A stretch of DNA of 64,000 nt from Asterias rubens (lineage: Eukaryota). Positions 739 to 64,000 of the stretch are shown here, piece by piece. Positions within the stretch are counted from its first letter, which is position 1; each line of letters opens with the position of its first letter. Where the stretch lies: the NCBI RefSeq assembly GCF_902459465.1, contig NC_047066.1:6569047-6633046 (forward strand). The letters are read 5' to 3'. The translations under genes were made by a program, and so were the position numbers. A model generated the notes under the pieces. That model worked only from the letters and a program-made list of their open reading frames with translations, did no database searches and was not told where the DNA came from.

Positions 739-49222
<48,484 letters not shown>

Positions 49223-50656
49223 CTGAAAAAGAAAGAACAGACAAAAAAAAAAATTAAGATGTTTCAAAAGACAAACAAATCTTTCTGAACAAACAGAGGA
49301 CAGAAAAAATAAAAAATTAAGACATTTCAGAAGATTCTTTCTTAACCTTCAAGATCAAAATAAAAGTTGTCATTTCAAGGATAGCAGCTAATCAATAACA
49401 TCATTTTGCAGGATGATTGCAACCACCCTTACACATTGAGGGTATCAACTTTTTTCAGACTTTTGTTCCTTTTTTCTTTAGTCAAATGTAATTTTTCTAT
49501 CCAAACACAGTGATCATTATCTGGGAGGATAATGTTGACTGTTTGCAATGAGTAGAGATCATTAAGTAGTAGAAGACTAGCTAGCCATGCAAAGTTTTGT
49601 GAGCTCACTGCTTTTGTATTTACGCAATGTCCAAATTGGCGACTATATGTAGGTTTAGCACTGAAGGAGAGGACCACCTAGGAAAATATATAATTGAAAA
49701 AACTAATAAATTTGGCTTATTGGGATATTTCCCTCAAAATTTTGATTTGATCCTTCCAAGGATTACTTTATTCCCTTGTGAAAAAGGAAACCGTTTTCCC
49801 CAAATGCATAAAATCTTTTGCGATCATAAAAATTTGTTATCTAAGTGTGGACAAATTTGCATTGGAAGAAGACAGGCAACTTTACAAATTGTCAAAAGTG
49901 AAGTATCAAAAGTTTCACTCGCTGATTAATTGTGGGTCACATTGATTTTTGTTTATCTTGCATGTTGCATACTCTGCCATTTTTTTGAGCCATACAGCTT
50001 GCATAATCTGAAAACGATTTGTTTAATGTTTAGGCTACCTTAATCATTAAATTAATTATAGGGAAGACAAACATTAATAGTTTTGCTTCCAAGGTTCAAG
50101 AAGAGCCATTGTGTTTTAACATAAAGTTGAAAAAACAGTTTCAAAAGCGTTCATATGGCGCCACCACAAATGGAATTTGTTACATAATTTTGCAAAGGAA
50201 TTCAATTAGTCTCAGTTTCTTACCATTGGCTTTGTAGAAACATAAAAATCTTAAGGAAATTTGCAAAGTTTTTTTTACGGTTTTCGACCCTAAAAATATC
50301 TATCGACTGCTGCTTTCTTACTCAACTCATTTAAGTTGGGATAACTTTCACTCATTTTTTCAAAAAAGGGATATCTCATTGAGGTAAATTAGATACTATA
50401 TTATTTCATATTGAATGAAAAAGTGGTGGCGCCATACGGAAACTTTTCCTGAAGTTGTTACCCAAATCAATATCTAATAATAGACATCATAATTGCACAA
50501 ACATCAATTTAATATATCTACACGGTAGACGAGTACGTAGACTAGGTGACTTTATATAACACCCAAGCAGATCCTTGCCATTTGATTGGAGGATTGTCCG
50601 TCACGTGATAGCAAATAAAAGTACCATTGCACGCTGAGTCACTCGCCGTGCTTTTT

Positions 50657-53344: not shown

Positions 53345-53790
53345 TCTTAAAGATGCTATGTCAGATTTTTTGCCGATTTGACCCAAAAATTTTGATATGG
53401 GGTATTTTGATGGGGGTCGAGAAAATAACAAGCTTTCATTTGAGCCATTGCTCGAAAAAGTCCGCCAATTATTAGTAGCGGTGAAATAAAGTGCTCAAAA
53501 TTAGTTTTAAATTTTGATATGGGGTATTTTGATGGGGGTCGAGAAAATAACAAGCTTTCATTTGAGCCATTGCTCGAAAAAGTCCGCCAATTATTAGTAG
53601 CAGTGAAATAAAGTGCTCAAAATTACACGTGACCAATTCTTATGTGTTTTATAAGAAATGTTTTAAATTTTTGTCATGGTTCCTGACCATTAAAAGTAAA
53701 AGTTAAACTTTTTTTCGTTAGAGCAGGTGATACTCTTTGAAATACCATTCACTCGCCAAAAATCTGACATAGCATCTTTAACTACAGGAA
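53345..53790. mobile_element. Inverted-repeat-bounded element (TIR ...taaagatgctatgtcagattttt / aaaaatctgacatagcatcttta) containing an internal about 125-bp tandem duplication (53388..53635).
   Basis: Inverted termini at 53349.. and ..53780, with two tandem copies of ttttgatatggggtattttgatgggggtcgagaaaataacaagc... Confidence 0.55.
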
Positions 53791-56632: not shown

Positions 56633-57288
56633 CCATCGAGTTCCGGGAACCAGACGAAGATGGCAGCAGCTTGACAAAGGTCTACTTGATCGCCTTGATG
56701 AAGACTGTCTCATCTGTCTCTGGGTAGACTGCCGGCAGCATGTCGTACTCTATCCAACCATCAGACTTGACCTCGGCCTCCAATTTCTTTAACCTGTATG
56801 TGAGAAAGAAGACAGAGTTGACTTCTACCTATATGATCCTTTATCATGCTGTCACAATCTTGGTCATGTTCCCCGTTTCCAATAACAGAGATGAATGCTA
56901 ACATTCATTGCGCATGGCACCAGACTTATTTCTTCCAGCCTCAGTTTGGTTACAATGAGTGGGAATGGAGTAAAATCATGATGGCCACACCGTGATGAAG
57001 GTCTATAGCCCTTTCCCAAGAGCTGGTCGGATTTGGAACAGGCTACCGGTGGTTGCAGTCACTGCAACAAATCCGCAAGGGTTCCAGAGAGAAGCACTGC
57101 CAACTATAAGAGGGATGGAGGTTCCAATCTCTCTCAGGACAAACTGACAAAACCACAGCTTATAAAGAACAATGTTGACAGCATATAAGCACAGAGCACA
57201 AATGGAGTTTGCAAACGACCCTCTCCAGGACAGCAGCAATGCTTTATAACAACTCAAGATTCAAGACATAGTTCGAATGTCAGCTTTT

Positions 57289-57656: not shown

Positions 57657-57907
57657 GAGTTCAAACATATACCTCCTTTTCTCTGCAGTGTTGGCTTTCT
57701 TGATTTCCTTAATCGTCGGGCATCTGTTAAGCTTCACATTTCCCGATCGACGTCGTGCGGCAATTCTGTTCTTTCTTCCCCTCTTGAGCAACGTATCGTA
57801 GAAAATGCTGCGAAGGGCACTCTGGTGATCCTCCCTGTCCTTACTAGAGATCAAAGGCTCTTCCCATTCCAGTGGCATTGGGGTAATCAGGCCCTCACAA
57901 ATGGCTC
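57630..57907 (-). CDS. Terminal coding exon of the same gene: (R)AICEGLITPMPLEWEEPLISSKDREDHQSALRSIFYDTLLKRGRKNRIAARRRSGNVKLNRCPTIKEIKKANTAEKRRYMFELFKDTGHLW*. Stop at 57630..57632 lies inside a MITE TIR.
   Basis: Acceptor tttccacag|GAGCC at 57907, phase-1 compatible with the upstream donor. Basic C-terminal domain. The last 8 codons overlap the MITE at 57289..57656. Confidence 0.6.
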
Positions 57908-58424: not shown

Positions 58425-61400
58425 TGTTAGTATCAGACTTGATGGTGTACATGATAGGGTCGTAATTCTTGTCGCGGATCTCTCCAAAGTTGCGGCTGGC
58501 TTTCCAAGCATCTGGTTTCGCATCAGTGGCTGGAACATTCTCCATCATTTTTCTTGCTGCCTCCTGTTTGAAAATCGTCAGCAGTTTACCCTTGTCCTTT
58601 AACAATCCATGGACTAGTGGCTTGCTCTTAATAATGTCTGAATCCAGATGTTCACTTCCCGTCAGGACAGGATTTGTTGTAGCTTTCCTTTTTACTCTCT
58701 CCTTTCTCGGTCTATTACCAACTAAACATGTACAACCATGTTTCTTGCCCCTGAAGGATTTGCCCATGTGGTCAAACGGACAAGCAGAACTTTCAACTTC
58801 ATGTAGAAATCTGCTCGGAAAGATTTGGTCAACTGATTCTTCATCGCTACTGCATGAATGTTCATCCTCAAGAACTTCTTCAGCTGTCTTTGAGCTATTC
58901 CTTGGACCTCTATCTGCCTGTTTCTTCTTACACACAACACTACTACCTTCTACTGCAAGAAGGAGACTTGAATCATCGCTGTCAAAACCATCAACTCCTT
59001 CCTCATCATCTTTACTAGCATCTTCCTCAGCCAAGTTTTCTTGCACATCACCACCCTCCTCATCAGTGTTACTCCTCACATTATCTTCACCATTTTGCAA
59101 ATTTTTCCTCATTCCAAGCTCGGTGACGATCTGTCCGCCATGACCAACATCGTCACAATGACTGCCATCTCTCATATCATCAGCTTCCCTGAGATTTTTA
59201 TCTCCATTACCAGTAGAGTTCCCTTCTCTATCTTTGTCTTCATCATCCATGAGTTTGCCAACAAGGCTTTCGACATCATTGGAGCAATCATCGTACGAAT
59301 CACTTTCTTCTTCGTCTTGATCTTTCACGCTTAAAACCAAATCTACAGTGTCAAAGTAATAATCACTATCGTCGCTGTCTTTAGCGCTCTTTGAGCTGCT
59401 CTTACCCGATGACACAGTACTGTTCATCAATTTTGTCCATGCAAGATTTTTCTTTGATTTTGTTATCGTCAAGGTTTTCTTTTCTTTTGGTTGTCCTCCT
59501 TTGGTGTCTTCCTTTGTTTCTAATTTGGTAAACTTTGTGGATTGCGCCAAACTAGAAGTGCCTCCTTGCTCTTTATCTTCAGACTTCCCACCGGATGACA
59601 GTTGTTTATTCTTCTTTGTTAATTTTCTATCATTCATTAATTCTGCAACAACTTCTGTTGCTTCCATTGTCTTTAAGGATCTTCTAAAATCACTCTTCTT
59701 CGGTGCATTTTTTATTTCTCCTTTGAGGGCTTTCTCTTGTTTTGCTGTTTTACTCTTTGTAGATTTTTTCAAACTACTGGATTTGCCAATGATGCCTAGA
59801 TCACCTTGATGGTCAGTGCCGACAGCATCTTCACCGGTATTATCAATTCTTGATTCTCCACAGTTGTCTTCAGAAGTTTTCTCAATGGGACTATTTTGAA
59901 CATCCACTTGTTTAGTCTTCCTTGCCAGTTTAGTCTTTACCTGTTTACTCTCTGTCTGTGTCTCTGTCTTCTCCAACAGTGTTTTGTTTTTCAACTTCTT
60001 AAGCGGTCTGCTCTTGTCTGGTTCACCTTCCTTCCTTTTTCCTAAATCACAACTGTTTTTAACTTGTATACTCTTTGGTGAATTTCTTTCTTTCCGTTCT
60101 CCTTCTTGGGCATTTGTCTTTGTCGATGTCTTCTTTTTGGATTGTCTCGGGCTCTCTATCAGTTTACCATTGTCCACTCTTTCATTGCAGTTGTCCAAAC
60201 TAAGGTTCTTTTCCATGCTTTCTGTCAGGACAGATTTTATCTTGGATTTGCCCATGTCAGCCATTTCAGGTAGAGTTTTTTGTGTCAACTTTTTATGTGA
60301 TTTGCTCTTGTACAATAATCCAGCGTAATTTCGGGGGTCATCTTGTTCCCTGTCCGTTCGATCAAGACTCTTTTTGATATTTTTCCTCTGAGGTGGTTTT
60401 CCTTTTTTCAAAAGTCCATCTTTGGTTTGTTTGTCTGTCGTTAATTGTGTCACCTTTCCGGACTGTTTCAAAGAATCACTTTCTTCTTCGTCTTGATCTT
60501 TCACGCTTAAAACCAAATCTACAGTGTCAAAGTAATAATCACTATCGTCGCTGTCTTTAGCGCTCTTTGAGCTGCTCTTACCCGATGACACAGCACTGTT
60601 TATCAATTTTGTCCATGCAAGATTTTTCTTTGATTTTGTTATCGTCAAGGTTTTCTTTTCTTTTGGTTGTCCTCCTTTGGTGTCTTCCTTTGTTTCTAAT
60701 TTGGTAAACTTTGTGGATTGCGCCAAACTAGAAGTGCCTCCTTGCTCTTTATCTTCAGACTTCCCACCAGATGACAGTTGTTTATTCTTCTTTGTTAATT
60801 TTCTATCATTCATTAATTCTGCAACAACTTCTGTTGCTTCCATTGTCTTTAAGGATCTTCTAAAATCACTCTTCTTCGGTGCATTTTTTATTTCTCCTTT
60901 GAGGGCTTTCTCTTGCTTTGCTGTTTTACTCTTTGTAGATTTTTTCAAACTACTGGCTTTGCCAATGATGCCTAGATCACCTTGATGGTCAGTGCCGACA
61001 GCATCTTCATCGGTATTATCAATTCTTGATTCTCCACAGTTGTCTTCAGAAGTTTTCTCAATGGGACTATTTTGAACATCCACTTGTTTAGTCTTCCTTG
61101 CCAGTTTAGTATTTACCTTTTTACTCTCTGTCTGTGTCTCTGTCTTCTCCAACAGTGTTTTGTTTTTCAACTTCTTAAGCGGGCTGCTCTTGTCTGGTTC
61201 ACCTTCCTTCCTTTTTCTTAAATCACAACTGTTTTTAACTTGTATACTCTTTGGTGAATTTCTTTCTTTCCGTTCTCCTTCTTGGGCATTTGTCTTTGTC
61301 GATGTCATCTTTTTGGATTGTCTCGGGCTCTCTATCAGTTTACCATTGTCCACTCTTTCATTGCAGTTGTCCAAACTAAGGTTCTTTTCCATGCTTTCTG

Positions 61401-63969
61401 TCAGGACAGATTTTATCTTGGATTTGCCCATGTCAGCCATTTCAGGTAGAGTTTTTTGTGTCAACTTTTTATGTGATTTGCTCTTGTACAATAATCCAGC
61501 GTAATTTCGGGGGTCATCTTGTTGCCTGTCCGTTCGATCAAGACTCTTTTTGATATTTTTCCTCTGAGGTGGTTTTCCTTTTTTCAAAAGTCCATCTTTG
61601 ATTTGTTTGTCTGTCGTTAATTGTGTCACCTTTCCGGACTGTTTCAAAGAGCTGGTCTGACTCTTATCATCATGACCACCTTCATCTGATGATGTCATTA
61701 TTGCATCATCGCTGTTTTCATTTTCGTCATCACCAAGGCCCTCATCACAGCCATTTAAGCTTTGCTCACTTAAACTCCTTGACTCTCCATGTTGCTCCCC
61801 ACATGTCGATTGCTGATGGTCGTTTTTTCCATCTTCTTTAGTGTTCCTCGATTTTGTCTTTTCCCCAGTAGAAACCCCTCTGTTTTTTACTGTTTCCGCT
61901 TCAGACAACAATCCGGTCAGTTTCTGTGGCTTTTTCGCTTTTCTCTTCACCAATAGTCCACTGTTGTCTGGATCATATTCCAAACTTTCTGTCCGACTAA
62001 GACTCTTCTTTGTTTTTGGTCCCTTCGCAGATTTTCTTCCTCTCCGTAATCCAGCTTCGGTGACTTCTTTTGACTGTGTTGCTGTTGTAGTTTTTTGGAT
62101 GATGCTGCATTCACCTGAAACTCCTCTATTTTCATCATCTGGGGAATTCACAATAGTATCATCGCTATCTGAGCCACCAATGTCAGCATCAATGTCCTTG
62201 ATACCATCGTGCTCAGTTCTGTCAATGGTTGTTTGGCCATCAACATCTTCATCATCACCAAGGTTGTCGCCCTGAACAAGATTATTCTGATCACTGTTAG
62301 CATCACCATCTTCAGATTTAGCTGCCCGACTTCTTCTGTTAAGACCGCCTCTTTTGTTACTTCCTTTCTCTTTCCGATACTCACTTGTACTTTGCAGATT
62401 GGTTTTACCACAATCTTTTTTAACCTTCGTTGATTTTGTCCGTTTTCCATCACTCCTCTGCTTACGTGTCTTTAACATTTTTTGCTTGACTTGTAACGAT
62501 CCTTTCATTTCTGATTGTTTTTCTTTTTTTATTTGTGATTTGCTCTTCTTCAACAGTCTATCGTTGAGCTTAGCTGGACAATCATCTGAACTTACATAAT
62601 CTGGGATATTCAGACTTGTGTCATCGCTGTCAGAGCCACCAATGTCTTCAGTCTCATCTTTAAGAATATCTCCCTCCTCTCTGTTTTCTTTAACATTTAT
62701 TTGTGATTTGCTCTTCTTCTTCTTTAACAGTCTATCGTTGAGCTTAGCGGGACAATCATCTGAACTTACATAATCTGGGATATTCAGACTTGTGTCATCG
62801 CTGTCAGAGCCACCAATGTCTTCAGTCTCATCTTTAAGAATATCTCCCTCCTCTCTGTTTTCTTTAACATGGCCATCAAGATTTTCATCATTATCAAGTT
62901 TGTCCTCATCAGTACATTCCTTTCTTTCAACCTGACGTTCGTCACTAACATCCAGACGAAAAACTTCATCATCATGATCACTCCCATCCCTATGATCTTT
63001 CTCGTCTCTGTCAGTAGATTCAACTGCCTGACTGCTTGGCTCCTGCTGCTTATCCTTACAATCTATTTCATGATGGCTAGTTTCAAAACCTGTTTCTTTA
63101 AAGGCCTTTGATTCTGCTTGTTTCTCCTTTGCTATCATATTTTTCTCTGCCTGCTGTTTGAAAATCTTCAACATTTTACCCTTGTCAGCCAGTAACCCTG
63201 TGGGGTTCAATCGCTTCGTCGGTTTCACCTGTTCTGATTTACTCTCGTCATCATCTAAAACAATATTTGAGCTTACTTGCTTTTGTAAGACGTTTTCTTG
63301 ACTGCCTGAAGAATTTTGATCTGTATCACTATCAGAACCATTTCCACTACTACTGATATCATTCACCCTCTCACCAATGCTGACCTTCAAATGACCAGGC
63401 ATGCCATGGCTTTCTTTAGGGGTGCCAATTAAGCTTATCTCCTCACTACTTGAAAATAGTTCGTCCAGTATTCTTCTTCGATTCTTTCGGGGTGACATTC
63501 TCCTGCCATAGACCTTATTATCTGTTATGTTTCTGTGTTGTCTATCTCTGATCACGTCTTCCTCAACTAAATTTTCACTCTGACTGTCATCGGTTACGTC
63601 AAACTCTTTAGCATCGCTGTAACAATCACTCTCTGGGTCGTCTTTCAACCTAGACTCAGTTGCTTGATCAAGGATGAAGGGATTTCCATAATCTCCATCA
63701 TCAAGTTCTTCGCTCCATTCATCCCAATTGTCAATACTAGAGAGAACATCACCTTCACCACACTCACTGGCAGAAGTTCCAACTATGGTGTGGTCATTAT
63801 CTTCCTTGTCACTGATGCCAACTTCTTCAGCACTAATGCTACCTTCTTCAGCACTACTCTCATCATTATCAATGAACTCTTCCACCTCAAAGAGTTCAAG
63901 GCTGCAGTCACTGCCACTACCATCTGCAAAAAGATCTTGATTCTCTTTGTCACTTTCTCGATCACCCAA
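58425..63969 (-). CDS. Giant single coding exon (window-truncated at its 5' side) of an unidentified Lys/Ser/Asp/Glu-rich low-complexity protein. It carries acidic serine clusters (GGSDSDDT), internal tandem duplications, and two copies of the motif GLLxDKGKxLxIFKQxA.
   Basis: Uninterrupted 1860-codon minus ORF. Ends at consensus donor AACAG|gtaagtgg (58424..58423). No stop in about 5.5 kb despite AT-rich DNA. Confidence 0.8.
59297..61648. repeat. Two tandem, in-frame copies of a 1176-bp (392-codon) unit inside the giant coding exon (59297..60472 and 60473..61648), about 99% identical.
   Basis: Direct comparison of the two blocks shows fewer than 15 substitutions. The period is exactly 1176 bp. 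Confidence 0.85.
62531..62870. repeat. Two tandem copies of an about 170-bp coding unit (VKENREEGDILKDETEDIGGSDSDDTSLNIPDYVSSDDCPAKLNDRLLKK...) inside the same exon.
   Basis: Near-identical DNA blocks 62531..62696 and 62697..62870. Confidence 0.8.
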
Positions 63970-64000
63970 GCCATCATGGACTAGAGAAACACTAATGTTA

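What the first reader, a model, noticed from the sequence alone, without database searches (positions are those of the whole stretch)
59297..61648. Very recent 1176-bp in-frame tandem duplication inside a 5.5-kb coding exon
Two adjacent 392-codon blocks are about 99% identical at the DNA level, with an exact 1176-bp period. This is far more similar than the rest of this low-complexity protein is to itself. Either it is a very recent intragenic duplication that preserves frame, which suggests a tolerated or selected repeat-number change in a repeat protein, or it is an assembly collapse or expansion artefact.
Basis: seen in the sequence. Interest (0 to 1): 0.6.

Follow-up and report, generated by a model that had tools for sequence, protein, structure and literature searches.

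The report
Starfish gene grows by internal duplication
A 1,176-base stretch is copied head to tail, in frame, inside the giant exon of an uncharacterised starfish-only gene; this is an ordinary way for a floppy, weakly constrained protein region to lengthen, and the sister species has made different copies at the same spot.

Summary
Window 59297-60472 and 60473-61648 are gapless tandem copies with a period of 1176 (392 codons) and 13 substitutions (98.9% identity).

- **Gene:** the coding strand is minus. The exon belongs to Asterias rubens LOC117290414 (2870 aa, uncharacterised) and runs off the window end, so it is at least 5.6 kb.
- **Origin:** the junction joins non-homologous sequence at a 2-bp microhomology, with no assembly gap. 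This points to a real replication or end-joining event, not a mis-join.
- **Sister species:** A. amurensis lacks this junction. In the same ~2.5 kb it has an 8-copy 375-bp in-frame array and a 1137-bp duplication with other breakpoints. A. rubens also has a second young in-frame duplication (168/174 bp).
- **Age:** copy divergence is about 0.4-0.6 of the between-species divergence, so the event is post-speciation but not brand new.
- **Constraint:** dN/dS is ~0.9 between the copies and ~0.76 between species. The unit is lysine-rich and predicted disordered.
- **Family context:** orthologues were found only in starfish. Their linker is ~200-430 aa, against ~1900-2300 aa in Asterias.

Verdict: a real, tolerated intragenic duplication and a new member of a known kind. 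Read depth and polymorphism could not be tested.

The parts
60473..61648 (-). Copy A of the 1176-bp unit (5' / N-terminal copy; P0001 residues ~1681-2072)
   Evidence: Offset-1176 identity profile and mismatch list; translation. 9 of the 12 polarisable differences are derived in this copy.
59297..60472 (-). Copy B of the 1176-bp unit (3' / C-terminal copy; P0001 residues ~2073-2464)
   Evidence: 98.15% identical to the A. amurensis orthologous segment, against 97.75% for copy A.
60471..60474 (-). Duplication junction. On the coding strand it reads ...GAAGAAGAAAGTGATTC|TTTGAAACAGTCCGG..., with a 2-bp (TC) microhomology between the upstream flank end and the unit end
   Evidence: The flanks share no homology beyond 2 bp.
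62544..62870 (-). Second young in-frame tandem duplication: a 168-bp unit plus a 6-bp AAG slip in the first copy, giving period 174. There are 2 mismatches in 153 nt. It is single-copy in A. amurensis
   Evidence: protein comparison.
61562..61936 (-). Single-copy A. rubens segment that is amplified to 8 tandem 375-bp copies in A. amurensis (L001 14602-17605). It overlaps the first ~90 bp of copy A
   Evidence: GAAAAA(T) microhomology lies at both ends.
58628..59119 (-). In-frame segment of about 480-490 bp present in A. rubens and absent from A. amurensis (direction of change unknown)
58425..63999 (-). In-window part of the giant first coding exon of LOC117290414 (P0001 residues 898-2756). It continues beyond the window end. 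The donor A|GTAAGT is at 58425/58424
57673..57907 (-). Penultimate coding exon (start of the conserved C-terminal block)
56682..56793 (-). Last coding exon with stop codon TAG (56684-56682)

Best explanation
This is a genuine, lineage-specific, in-frame tandem duplication of 392 codons. It lies in the giant first coding exon of an uncharacterised, apparently starfish-restricted gene, Asterias rubens LOC117290414.

Shown: two gapless head-to-tail copies; one ORF through both; a junction with only 2 bp of microhomology; absence of that junction in A. amurensis; near-neutral divergence between the copies.

Inferred origin: a homology-independent, microhomology-mediated event (replication template switch or slippage, or end joining between sister chromatids) in the A. 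rubens lineage after its split from A. amurensis.

Inferred persistence: the segment encodes a lysine-rich, highly charged, disordered linker whose amino-acid sequence and length are barely constrained. The reading frame must stay open to reach the conserved C-terminal block.

It is the latest step in a long series of internal duplications. These have inflated the linker from about 200-430 residues in valvatid starfish to about 1900-2300 in Asterias.
For: - **Repeat geometry and frame:**
- **Identity of the gene:** the window ORF is 100% identical to the A. rubens protein P0001, which contains both copies.
- **Junction:** 2-bp microhomology, no flanking homology, no N anywhere in the window.
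- **Differences between copies:** 13 substitutions, 0 indels, 7 transitions and 6 transversions, spread evenly. At 12 of the 13 sites one copy keeps the A. amurensis base (9 derived in A, 3 in B).
- **Sister species:** the A. amurensis locus L001 comes from a HiFi+Hi-C assembly (PMC10625585). It has no unit-end|unit-start junction. It does have a 375-bp x8 array, a 1137-bp duplication with different breakpoints plus an 876-bp deletion, and a single copy of the 168-bp unit. All are in frame.
- **Relative age:** 12 A/B differences against about 15 fixed A=B≠amurensis sites give t/T of about 0.57. dS is 0.013 against 0.035.
- **Weak constraint:** omega is 0.92 between the paralogues, 0.94-1.41 for the unit between species, and 0.76 for the central exon. 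The C-terminal exons show pN 0.008.
- **Disorder:** K 19%, charged residues 38%, GRAVY -1.3. In the AlphaFold model no residue reaches pLDDT 70.
- **Older internal repeats:** 33-64% identity.
- **Orthologues:** 1123 and 1413 aa, sharing only the N, middle and C blocks, with conserved adjacency to EP400.
- **Clustering of large events:** they cluster after residue ~1270, while the N-terminal 1267 aa differ only by three 6-8-aa indels.
Against: - No reads, depth or population data could be examined. Copy number in the sequenced animal rests on one assembly.
- The 1.1% divergence between copies is of the same order as allelic heterozygosity (0.96% reported for A. amurensis). Divergence alone therefore cannot separate paralogues from mis-placed alleles.
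- Only one outgroup was available, so the ancestral state is inferred from the breakpoints and not from a third species.
- The A. amurensis partial copies differ by 6 of 211 nt. Duplications in this segment may therefore have existed near or before the split and been lost or re-made.
- Nothing here shows that the protein is expressed with both copies.
Confidence: 0.8

Rival explanations
1. Assembly artefact: the locus is single-copy, and two haplotypes (or error-laden read sets) were laid down in tandem (a false heterotype or homotype duplication). A variant of this idea is that the true copy number differs from two.
For: Copy divergence (1.1%) is of the same order as the 0.96% heterozygosity reported for the sister species. 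There is no independent assembly or read set for A. rubens in the tools. False duplications are documented even in curated long-read assemblies (PMC9516828).
Against: [quoted passage not shown] The window has no N. The junction joins sequences that share only 2 bp. An overlap-based mis-join has nothing to anchor on there, so reads carrying this junction must exist. The differences are all substitutions with a biological transition/transversion mix and no indels. The unit is an exact multiple of 3 (a 1 in 3 chance). The HiFi assembly of the sister species shows the same exon really does make tandem duplications.
Confidence: 0.07
2. The duplication is real and was selected, not merely tolerated. 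It raises the number of short binding motifs in a scaffold protein. These motifs are two 'GLL + basic' motifs and one acidic-flanked hydrophobic VDLVL motif per unit. The independent expansions in A. amurensis would then be convergent.
For: The GLL motif occurs once in each valvatid orthologue, 8 times in A. rubens (shuffle mean 0.96, maximum 4) and 19 times in A. amurensis. Each young unit in both species carries two. The motif survives in old repeat pairs that are otherwise only ~33-36% identical, where the GLLxDKGKxLxIFKQ core is 64% identical.
Against: Motif counts rise automatically when any motif-bearing segment is duplicated. dN/dS of about 0.9-1.4 in the unit shows no sign of purifying or clear positive selection. 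Non-coding tandem duplications of similar youth exist nearby (53387-53625), so mutation alone supplies such events. No binding partner or function is known. No Pfam or PDB match was found.
Confidence: 0.12
3. An ancient duplication kept similar by gene conversion (concerted evolution), not a young event.
For: Tandem copies 1.2 kb apart can convert each other. A. amurensis also has duplicated material from this segment, with copies differing by 2.8%. One site (unit position 1048) shows the same A/G split between copies in both species.
Against: The two species have different junctions: unit-end|unit-start in A. rubens, and flank+70|unit110 in A. amurensis. Neither architecture derives from the other by simple deletion. 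The 13 differences are evenly spread, with no long conversion tract.
Confidence: 0.04

Closest known systems
Filaggrin (FLG) exon-3 intragenic copy-number variation in humans and primates
   Same: Nearly identical tandem units of about 1 kb (~972 bp in FLG) sit in frame inside one very large exon. Copy number differs between alleles (10-12 in humans) and between species (PMC3236450; PMC5225520).
   Different: FLG is a long, established array whose units are cleaved into functional monomers, and its variation arises by recombination between existing repeats. Here a previously single-copy segment was duplicated de novo at a 2-bp microhomology in an orphan gene of unknown function. Within-species variation is untested.
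Microhomology-mediated tandem duplications (FoSTeS/MMBIR, replication slippage, MMEJ-type CNVs)
   Same: A simple breakpoint with 2 bp of microhomology (6-7 bp for the A. amurensis array) and no flanking homology. This is one of the breakpoint classes described for fly and human CNVs (PMC4056370; PMC3597517).
   Different: The mechanism is inferred from the scar only. No stalled-fork or non-B motif was found at the breakpoints. The polypurine runs of 15 nt or more lie inside the unit, not at its ends.
False heterotype duplications in genome assemblies
   Same: Adjacent near-identical copies whose divergence is close to heterozygosity (PMC9516828).
   Different: There is no gap between the copies, the junction is precise and non-homologous, and the unit is in frame. 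Read depth was not testable.

Membership tests
In-frame intragenic tandem duplication / large-unit coding tandem repeat | Head-to-tail copies with no spacer | tested here: met
   Copies abut at 60472/60473; exact period 1176.
In-frame intragenic tandem duplication / large-unit coding tandem repeat | Unit length is a multiple of 3 and one ORF reads through all copies | tested here: met
   392 codons. The minus-strand ORF has 0 stops in 5610 nt, against 38-264 in the other frames. The annotated protein contains both copies.
In-frame intragenic tandem duplication / large-unit coding tandem repeat | Copies are closer to each other than to the orthologue (a young, lineage-specific event) | tested here: met
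   98.9% between copies, against 97.75% and 98.15% to A. amurensis. The A. amurensis locus lacks the junction.
In-frame intragenic tandem duplication / large-unit coding tandem repeat | Copy number varies among individuals of the species | not testable with these tools
   No A. rubens reads or second assembly were available. The junction-peptide search returned nothing, not even the source protein.
False assembly duplication (heterotype/homotype) | Assembly gap or unsupported sequence between the copies | tested here: not met
   No N in the window. The junction is continuous sequence. Criteria are taken from PMC9516828.
False assembly duplication (heterotype/homotype) | Half (or very low) read depth over the copies | not testable with these tools
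   No read data.
False assembly duplication (heterotype/homotype) | Divergence between copies equals allelic divergence | tested here: inconclusive
   1.1% between copies, against 0.96% heterozygosity reported for the sister species. A. rubens heterozygosity was not obtained.
NAHR between pre-existing repeats | Tens of bases or more of homology at the two breakpoints | tested here: not met
   Only TC is shared.
Transposable-element insertion | Inserted DNA is foreign to the site and has terminal repeats, a target-site duplication or TE genes | tested here: not met
   The extra 1176 bp copies the adjacent sequence itself and is colinear with the single-copy orthologous segment in A. amurensis. 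No Pfam domain was found.
Any curated protein family for the host gene | Significant match to Pfam or to a solved structure | tested here: not met
   No Pfam hit for P0001, P0003 or P0004 at gathering level. No PDB hit with the full protein or with a C-terminal profile (best E = 0.06). An HMMER scan of 1.84 billion representatives with the C-terminal 237 aa found only the Acanthaster and Patiria orthologues.

The most novel reading that the evidence does not exclude
The same ~2.5-kb stretch of one exon has been independently and repeatedly amplified in frame in two sister starfish species: 2 x 1176 bp and 2 x 168 bp in A. rubens, and 8 x 375 bp plus a 1137-bp duplication in A. amurensis. Every amplified unit carries 'GLL + basic' motifs, which exist once in distant starfish orthologues. 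The most novel reading still allowed is convergent, selection-driven tuning of motif valency in a starfish-specific nuclear scaffold protein, not neutral churn at a mutational hot spot.
Probability: 0.12. Interest if true: 0.5.

Novelty: new member of a known kind. Interest (0 to 1): 0.25.

Why it matters
If real, as I judge likely, this is a clean and well-bounded example of how disordered protein regions grow. The steps visible here are de novo microhomology-mediated duplication, survival only of in-frame events, and near-neutral drift of the copies. A sister species shows alternative outcomes at the same place, and distant orthologues show the short starting state.

For practical purposes it flags LOC117290414 and its A. 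amurensis orthologue as genes whose length and repeat number should not be trusted from a single assembly, and which will confuse orthology and alignment pipelines. It does not open a new biological question on its own. The host gene has no known function.

Tried and rejected
1. **Junction-peptide search.** I looked for independent A. rubens sequence across the junction with a 136-aa junction peptide in the 5.8-billion-protein collection. There was no hit, not even the source protein, so the negative is uninformative.
2. **Extending the gene family.** A 3-species N-terminal alignment gave no hit at E ≤ 0.01, again not even the query proteins themselves. The third search is spent.
3. **Naming the gene.** Pfam on all window ORFs and on the orthologues gave nothing above threshold. 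PDB sequence and profile searches gave nothing. A literature search by locus and accession names returned 0 papers.
4. **Structure of the C-terminal block.** The model built from a 4-sequence alignment was poor (pLDDT 58, pTM 0.23, helices only). I did not run a fold search on it, because matches to such a model are meaningless.
5. **TE origin.** Rejected: the extra DNA is a copy of its neighbour.
6. **NAHR origin.** Rejected: only 2 bp are shared at the breakpoints.
7. **Ancient duplication with gene conversion.** Rejected as the main explanation, because the two species have different junctions.
8. **Rate asymmetry between copies.** 9 against 3 derived changes is not significant (my calculation from the counts: two-sided binomial p of about 0.15).
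9. **Non-B DNA at the breakpoints.** Polypurine runs of 15 nt or more lie inside the unit, not at its ends.
10. **Absolute dating.** Not attempted. One genome paper gives ~28 Mya for the species split, but the calibration is remote.
Full report
**1. Observation**

At an offset of exactly 1176 bases, identity rises from chance level to 48-50 matches per 50 nt between 59297 and about 60474, then falls back. Inside the block there are 13 mismatches and no indels, which is 98.9%. The repeat finder reports the same pair at spacing 1176. The copies abut at 60472/60473.

The upstream flank and the end of the unit share only the dinucleotide TC on the coding strand. The junction therefore reads ...GAAGAAGAAAGTGATTC|TTTGAAACAGTCCGG....

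**2. Coding context**

The coding strand is minus. One frame is open from 63999 down to 58390 (1870 codons, no stop). The other five frames of the same stretch contain 38-264 stops. 1176 is 392 codons, so the frame is preserved through both copies.

The ORF product is 100% identical to Asterias rubens 'uncharacterized protein LOC117290414' (P0001, 2870 aa), and that protein contains both copies. So the window is common-starfish DNA.

In the window the gene consists of:
- the 3' 5.6 kb of a giant first coding exon (63999-58425, donor A|GTAAGT);
- a 235-nt exon (57907-57673);
- a last exon ending in TAG at 56684-56682.

Residues 1-897 lie beyond the window. In A. amurensis the corresponding exon is one 9.5-kb ORF. 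The next gene downstream on the same strand is EP400.

**3. The two copies compared**

Of the 13 differences, 11 change the amino acid and 2 do not. The Nei-Gojobori omega is 0.92. Seven are transitions and six are transversions. They are spread evenly along the unit, with no long identical tract that would suggest conversion.

I polarised the differences with A. amurensis. Nine are derived in the upstream copy A, three in the downstream copy B, and one is ambiguous. By my own calculation from these counts the asymmetry is not significant (two-sided binomial p of about 0.15).

**4. Sister species**

The orthologue in A. amurensis (P0002, 3227 aa) was located on chromosome CP134957.1 of GCA_032118995.1 and fetched as L001. 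That assembly was built from PacBio HiFi and Hi-C (PMC10625585).

DNA alignment of the two loci shows that A. amurensis has no unit-end|unit-start junction. Instead it has the following:
- **A 375-bp array.** A 375-bp (125-codon) unit is present 8.0 times (L001 14602-17605), and its copies differ by 0-6 nt. In A. rubens this segment is single-copy (61936-61562). It comprises 288 bp upstream of copy A plus the first ~90 bp of the unit. GAAAAA(T) lies at both ends.
- **A different large duplication.** The order is unit1-172, then unit1036 to flank+70, then unit110 onward. This is most simply a 1137-bp (379-codon) tandem duplication with other breakpoints, followed by an 876-bp in-frame deletion in its first copy.
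- **A single copy of the 168-bp unit.** A. rubens has this unit twice, at 62870-62544. There a later 6-bp AAG slip makes the period 174.
- **A missing segment.** About 160 codons present at 59119-58628 in A. rubens are absent.

Every one of these events is in frame. By contrast, the N-terminal 1267 residues differ between the species by only three indels of 6-8 residues. Large rearrangements therefore cluster in the distal half of the exon, and the two species have made different ones in overlapping places.

**5. Age**

Over unit positions 110-1176, the two A. rubens copies differ at 12 sites. Both differ from A. amurensis at about 15 further sites. With equal rates this puts the duplication at about 0.57 of the time back to the species split. 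Synonymous distances (0.013 against 0.035) give about 0.37.

The event is therefore post-speciation but not brand new. The 168-bp duplication has similar divergence, with 2 differences in 153 nt. I did not convert these ratios to years. One genome paper estimates the split at ~28 Mya (PMC11090083), but its calibration is remote.

The A. amurensis partial copies differ by 6 of 211 nt. That is too few sites to order this duplication relative to speciation.

**6. Real or artefact**

I could not look at reads. The indirect evidence favours a real event.
[quoted passage not shown] The window contains no N.
- The junction joins two sequences that share only 2 bp. An overlap-based mis-join has nothing to anchor on there, so reads carrying this junction must exist.
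- The differences are substitutions with a biological spectrum. There are no indels, which I would expect if long-read error were the cause (this expectation is from my own knowledge).
- The unit is a multiple of three.
- The HiFi assembly of the sister species shows the same exon truly makes tandem duplications.

Against this, the 1.1% divergence is of the same order as the 0.96% heterozygosity reported for A. amurensis. Divergence alone therefore does not exclude mis-placed alleles, and the true copy number could differ from two. I put the artefact at about 7%.

**7. What the segment encodes, and why the duplication is tolerated**

The unit is 19% lysine and 38% charged residues, with GRAVY -1.30 and pI 9.6. 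An AlphaFold model has no residue at pLDDT 70 or above, with mean 47.5. It was a single-sequence model, so this is only consistent with disorder, not proof of it.

Between species the central exon evolves at omega 0.76, and the unit at 0.94-1.41. The C-terminal exons show about a third of that non-synonymous divergence (pN 0.008), though the counts are small.

The amino-acid sequence of the linker is therefore barely constrained, while the frame is kept open. All six large events being multiples of three would have probability (1/3)^6, about 0.001, without that filter.

**8. The host gene**

- No Pfam domain was found.
- No PDB relative was found.
- No paper mentions these loci.

An exhaustive HMMER scan with the C-terminal 237 aa found only two further proteins:
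- Acanthaster planci LOC110980713 (1413 aa);
- Patiria miniata LOC119743122 (1123 aa).

These share colinear N-terminal, middle and C-terminal blocks with the Asterias protein. They have the same gene plan of one giant first coding exon plus small 3' exons. In Acanthaster the same EP400 neighbour is present.

Linker length between the middle and C-terminal blocks:

| Species | Linker length (aa) |
|---|---|
| Patiria miniata | ~200 |
| Acanthaster planci | ~430 |
| Asterias rubens | ~1920 |
| Asterias amurensis | ~2280 |

P0001 contains older internal repeats at 33-64% identity. The 1176-bp duplication is therefore the newest layer of a long history of growth by internal duplication.

**9. Mechanism (inferred)**

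A 2-bp microhomology with no flanking homology fits the class of simple microhomology breakpoints attributed to replication template switching or slippage, or to end joining (PMC4056370; PMC3597517). It does not fit NAHR. Once two copies exist, unequal exchange can add more, as the 8-copy A. amurensis array suggests. In that array the variants fall into two types, copies 1, 2 and 6 against copies 3, 4, 5 and 7.

**10. A possible functional angle (weak)**

A 'GLL + basic' motif occurs once in each valvatid orthologue, 8 times in A. rubens (shuffle mean 0.96, maximum 4 in 500) and 19 times in A. amurensis. Each young unit carries two. The motif persists in old, otherwise diverged repeats.

Each 392-aa unit also ends in DSDDSDYYFDTVDLVLSVKDQDEEESDS. 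This resembles an acidic-flanked hydrophobic interaction motif, a resemblance I draw from memory and have not tested.

These points allow, but do not show, selection for motif number. Duplicating any motif-bearing segment gives the same counts.

**11. Verdict**

It is a real (about 80%), lineage-specific, tolerated in-frame duplication in a disordered linker of an orphan starfish gene. This is a new member of a well-known kind, closest in form to the filaggrin exon-3 repeat variation (PMC3236450). The recurrence in the sister species is the most interesting aspect. Overall interest is low to moderate.

Noticed in passing
window 62544-62870 (-): A second young in-frame tandem duplication in the same exon. 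The unit is 168 bp, with a 6-bp AAG slip in the first copy giving period 174, and 2 mismatches in 153 nt. It is single-copy in A. amurensis.
   Followed up: yes
L001 14602-17605 (A. amurensis): A 375-bp (125-codon) unit repeated 8.0 times at 98% or more. It is single-copy in A. rubens (window 61936-61562). The copy variants fall into two types (copies 1, 2, 6 against 3, 4, 5, 7), suggesting block-wise expansion.
   Followed up: yes
L001 17677-17887 and 17882-19125 (A. amurensis): Remnant of a 1137-bp in-frame duplication of nearly the same segment as in A. rubens, but with different breakpoints and an 876-bp deletion in the first copy. The partial copies differ by 6 of 211 nt.
   Followed up: partly
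window 58628-59119 (-): About 160 in-frame codons present in A. rubens and absent from A. amurensis. Whether this is an insertion or a deletion is unknown without an outgroup.
   Followed up: partly
P0001 residues 1165, 1578, 1593, 1700, 1732, 2092, 2124, 2695 (window exon 58425-63999): The 'GLL + basic' short motif is strongly over-represented: 8 in A. rubens and 19 in A. amurensis, against 1 in each valvatid orthologue and a shuffle mean of about 1. Each 392-aa unit also ends in an acidic-flanked VDLVL motif.
   Followed up: partly
window 53387-53625: A non-coding tandem duplication with period 122 (not a multiple of 3) and 99% identity. Young tandem duplications are therefore not confined to the exon.
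   Followed up: no
window 15171-19181 (-) and 48059-49348 (-): Exons of the EP400 gene: an EP400_N Pfam match, and a 1337-codon Q/P-rich ORF with GC 0.50 and strong GC skew. The gene order 'orphan gene then EP400' is kept in A. amurensis and Acanthaster planci.
   Followed up: partly
window 26197-26258 (-): An Rfam tRNA match at 34 bits, just above the gathering score, that ARAGORN does not call. It is probably a tRNA-derived repeat or pseudogene.
   Followed up: partly
window 4263-5036 (-): An ORF with a weak reverse-transcriptase (RVT_1) match, E = 5e-4 and below the gathering score. It is probably a retroelement remnant.
   Followed up: no
window 34052-37101: Two pairs of ~180-nt direct repeats, each 786 bp apart (34052/34838 at 96%, 36131/36917 at 94%). 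More diverged copies lie further along, apparently inside EP400 introns.
   Followed up: no
tool behaviour: the search for homologous proteins did not return the query's own source protein for a 136-aa exact sub-sequence, nor for a 3-species alignment. Negatives from that tool for this low-complexity gene should not be read as absence.
   Followed up: no
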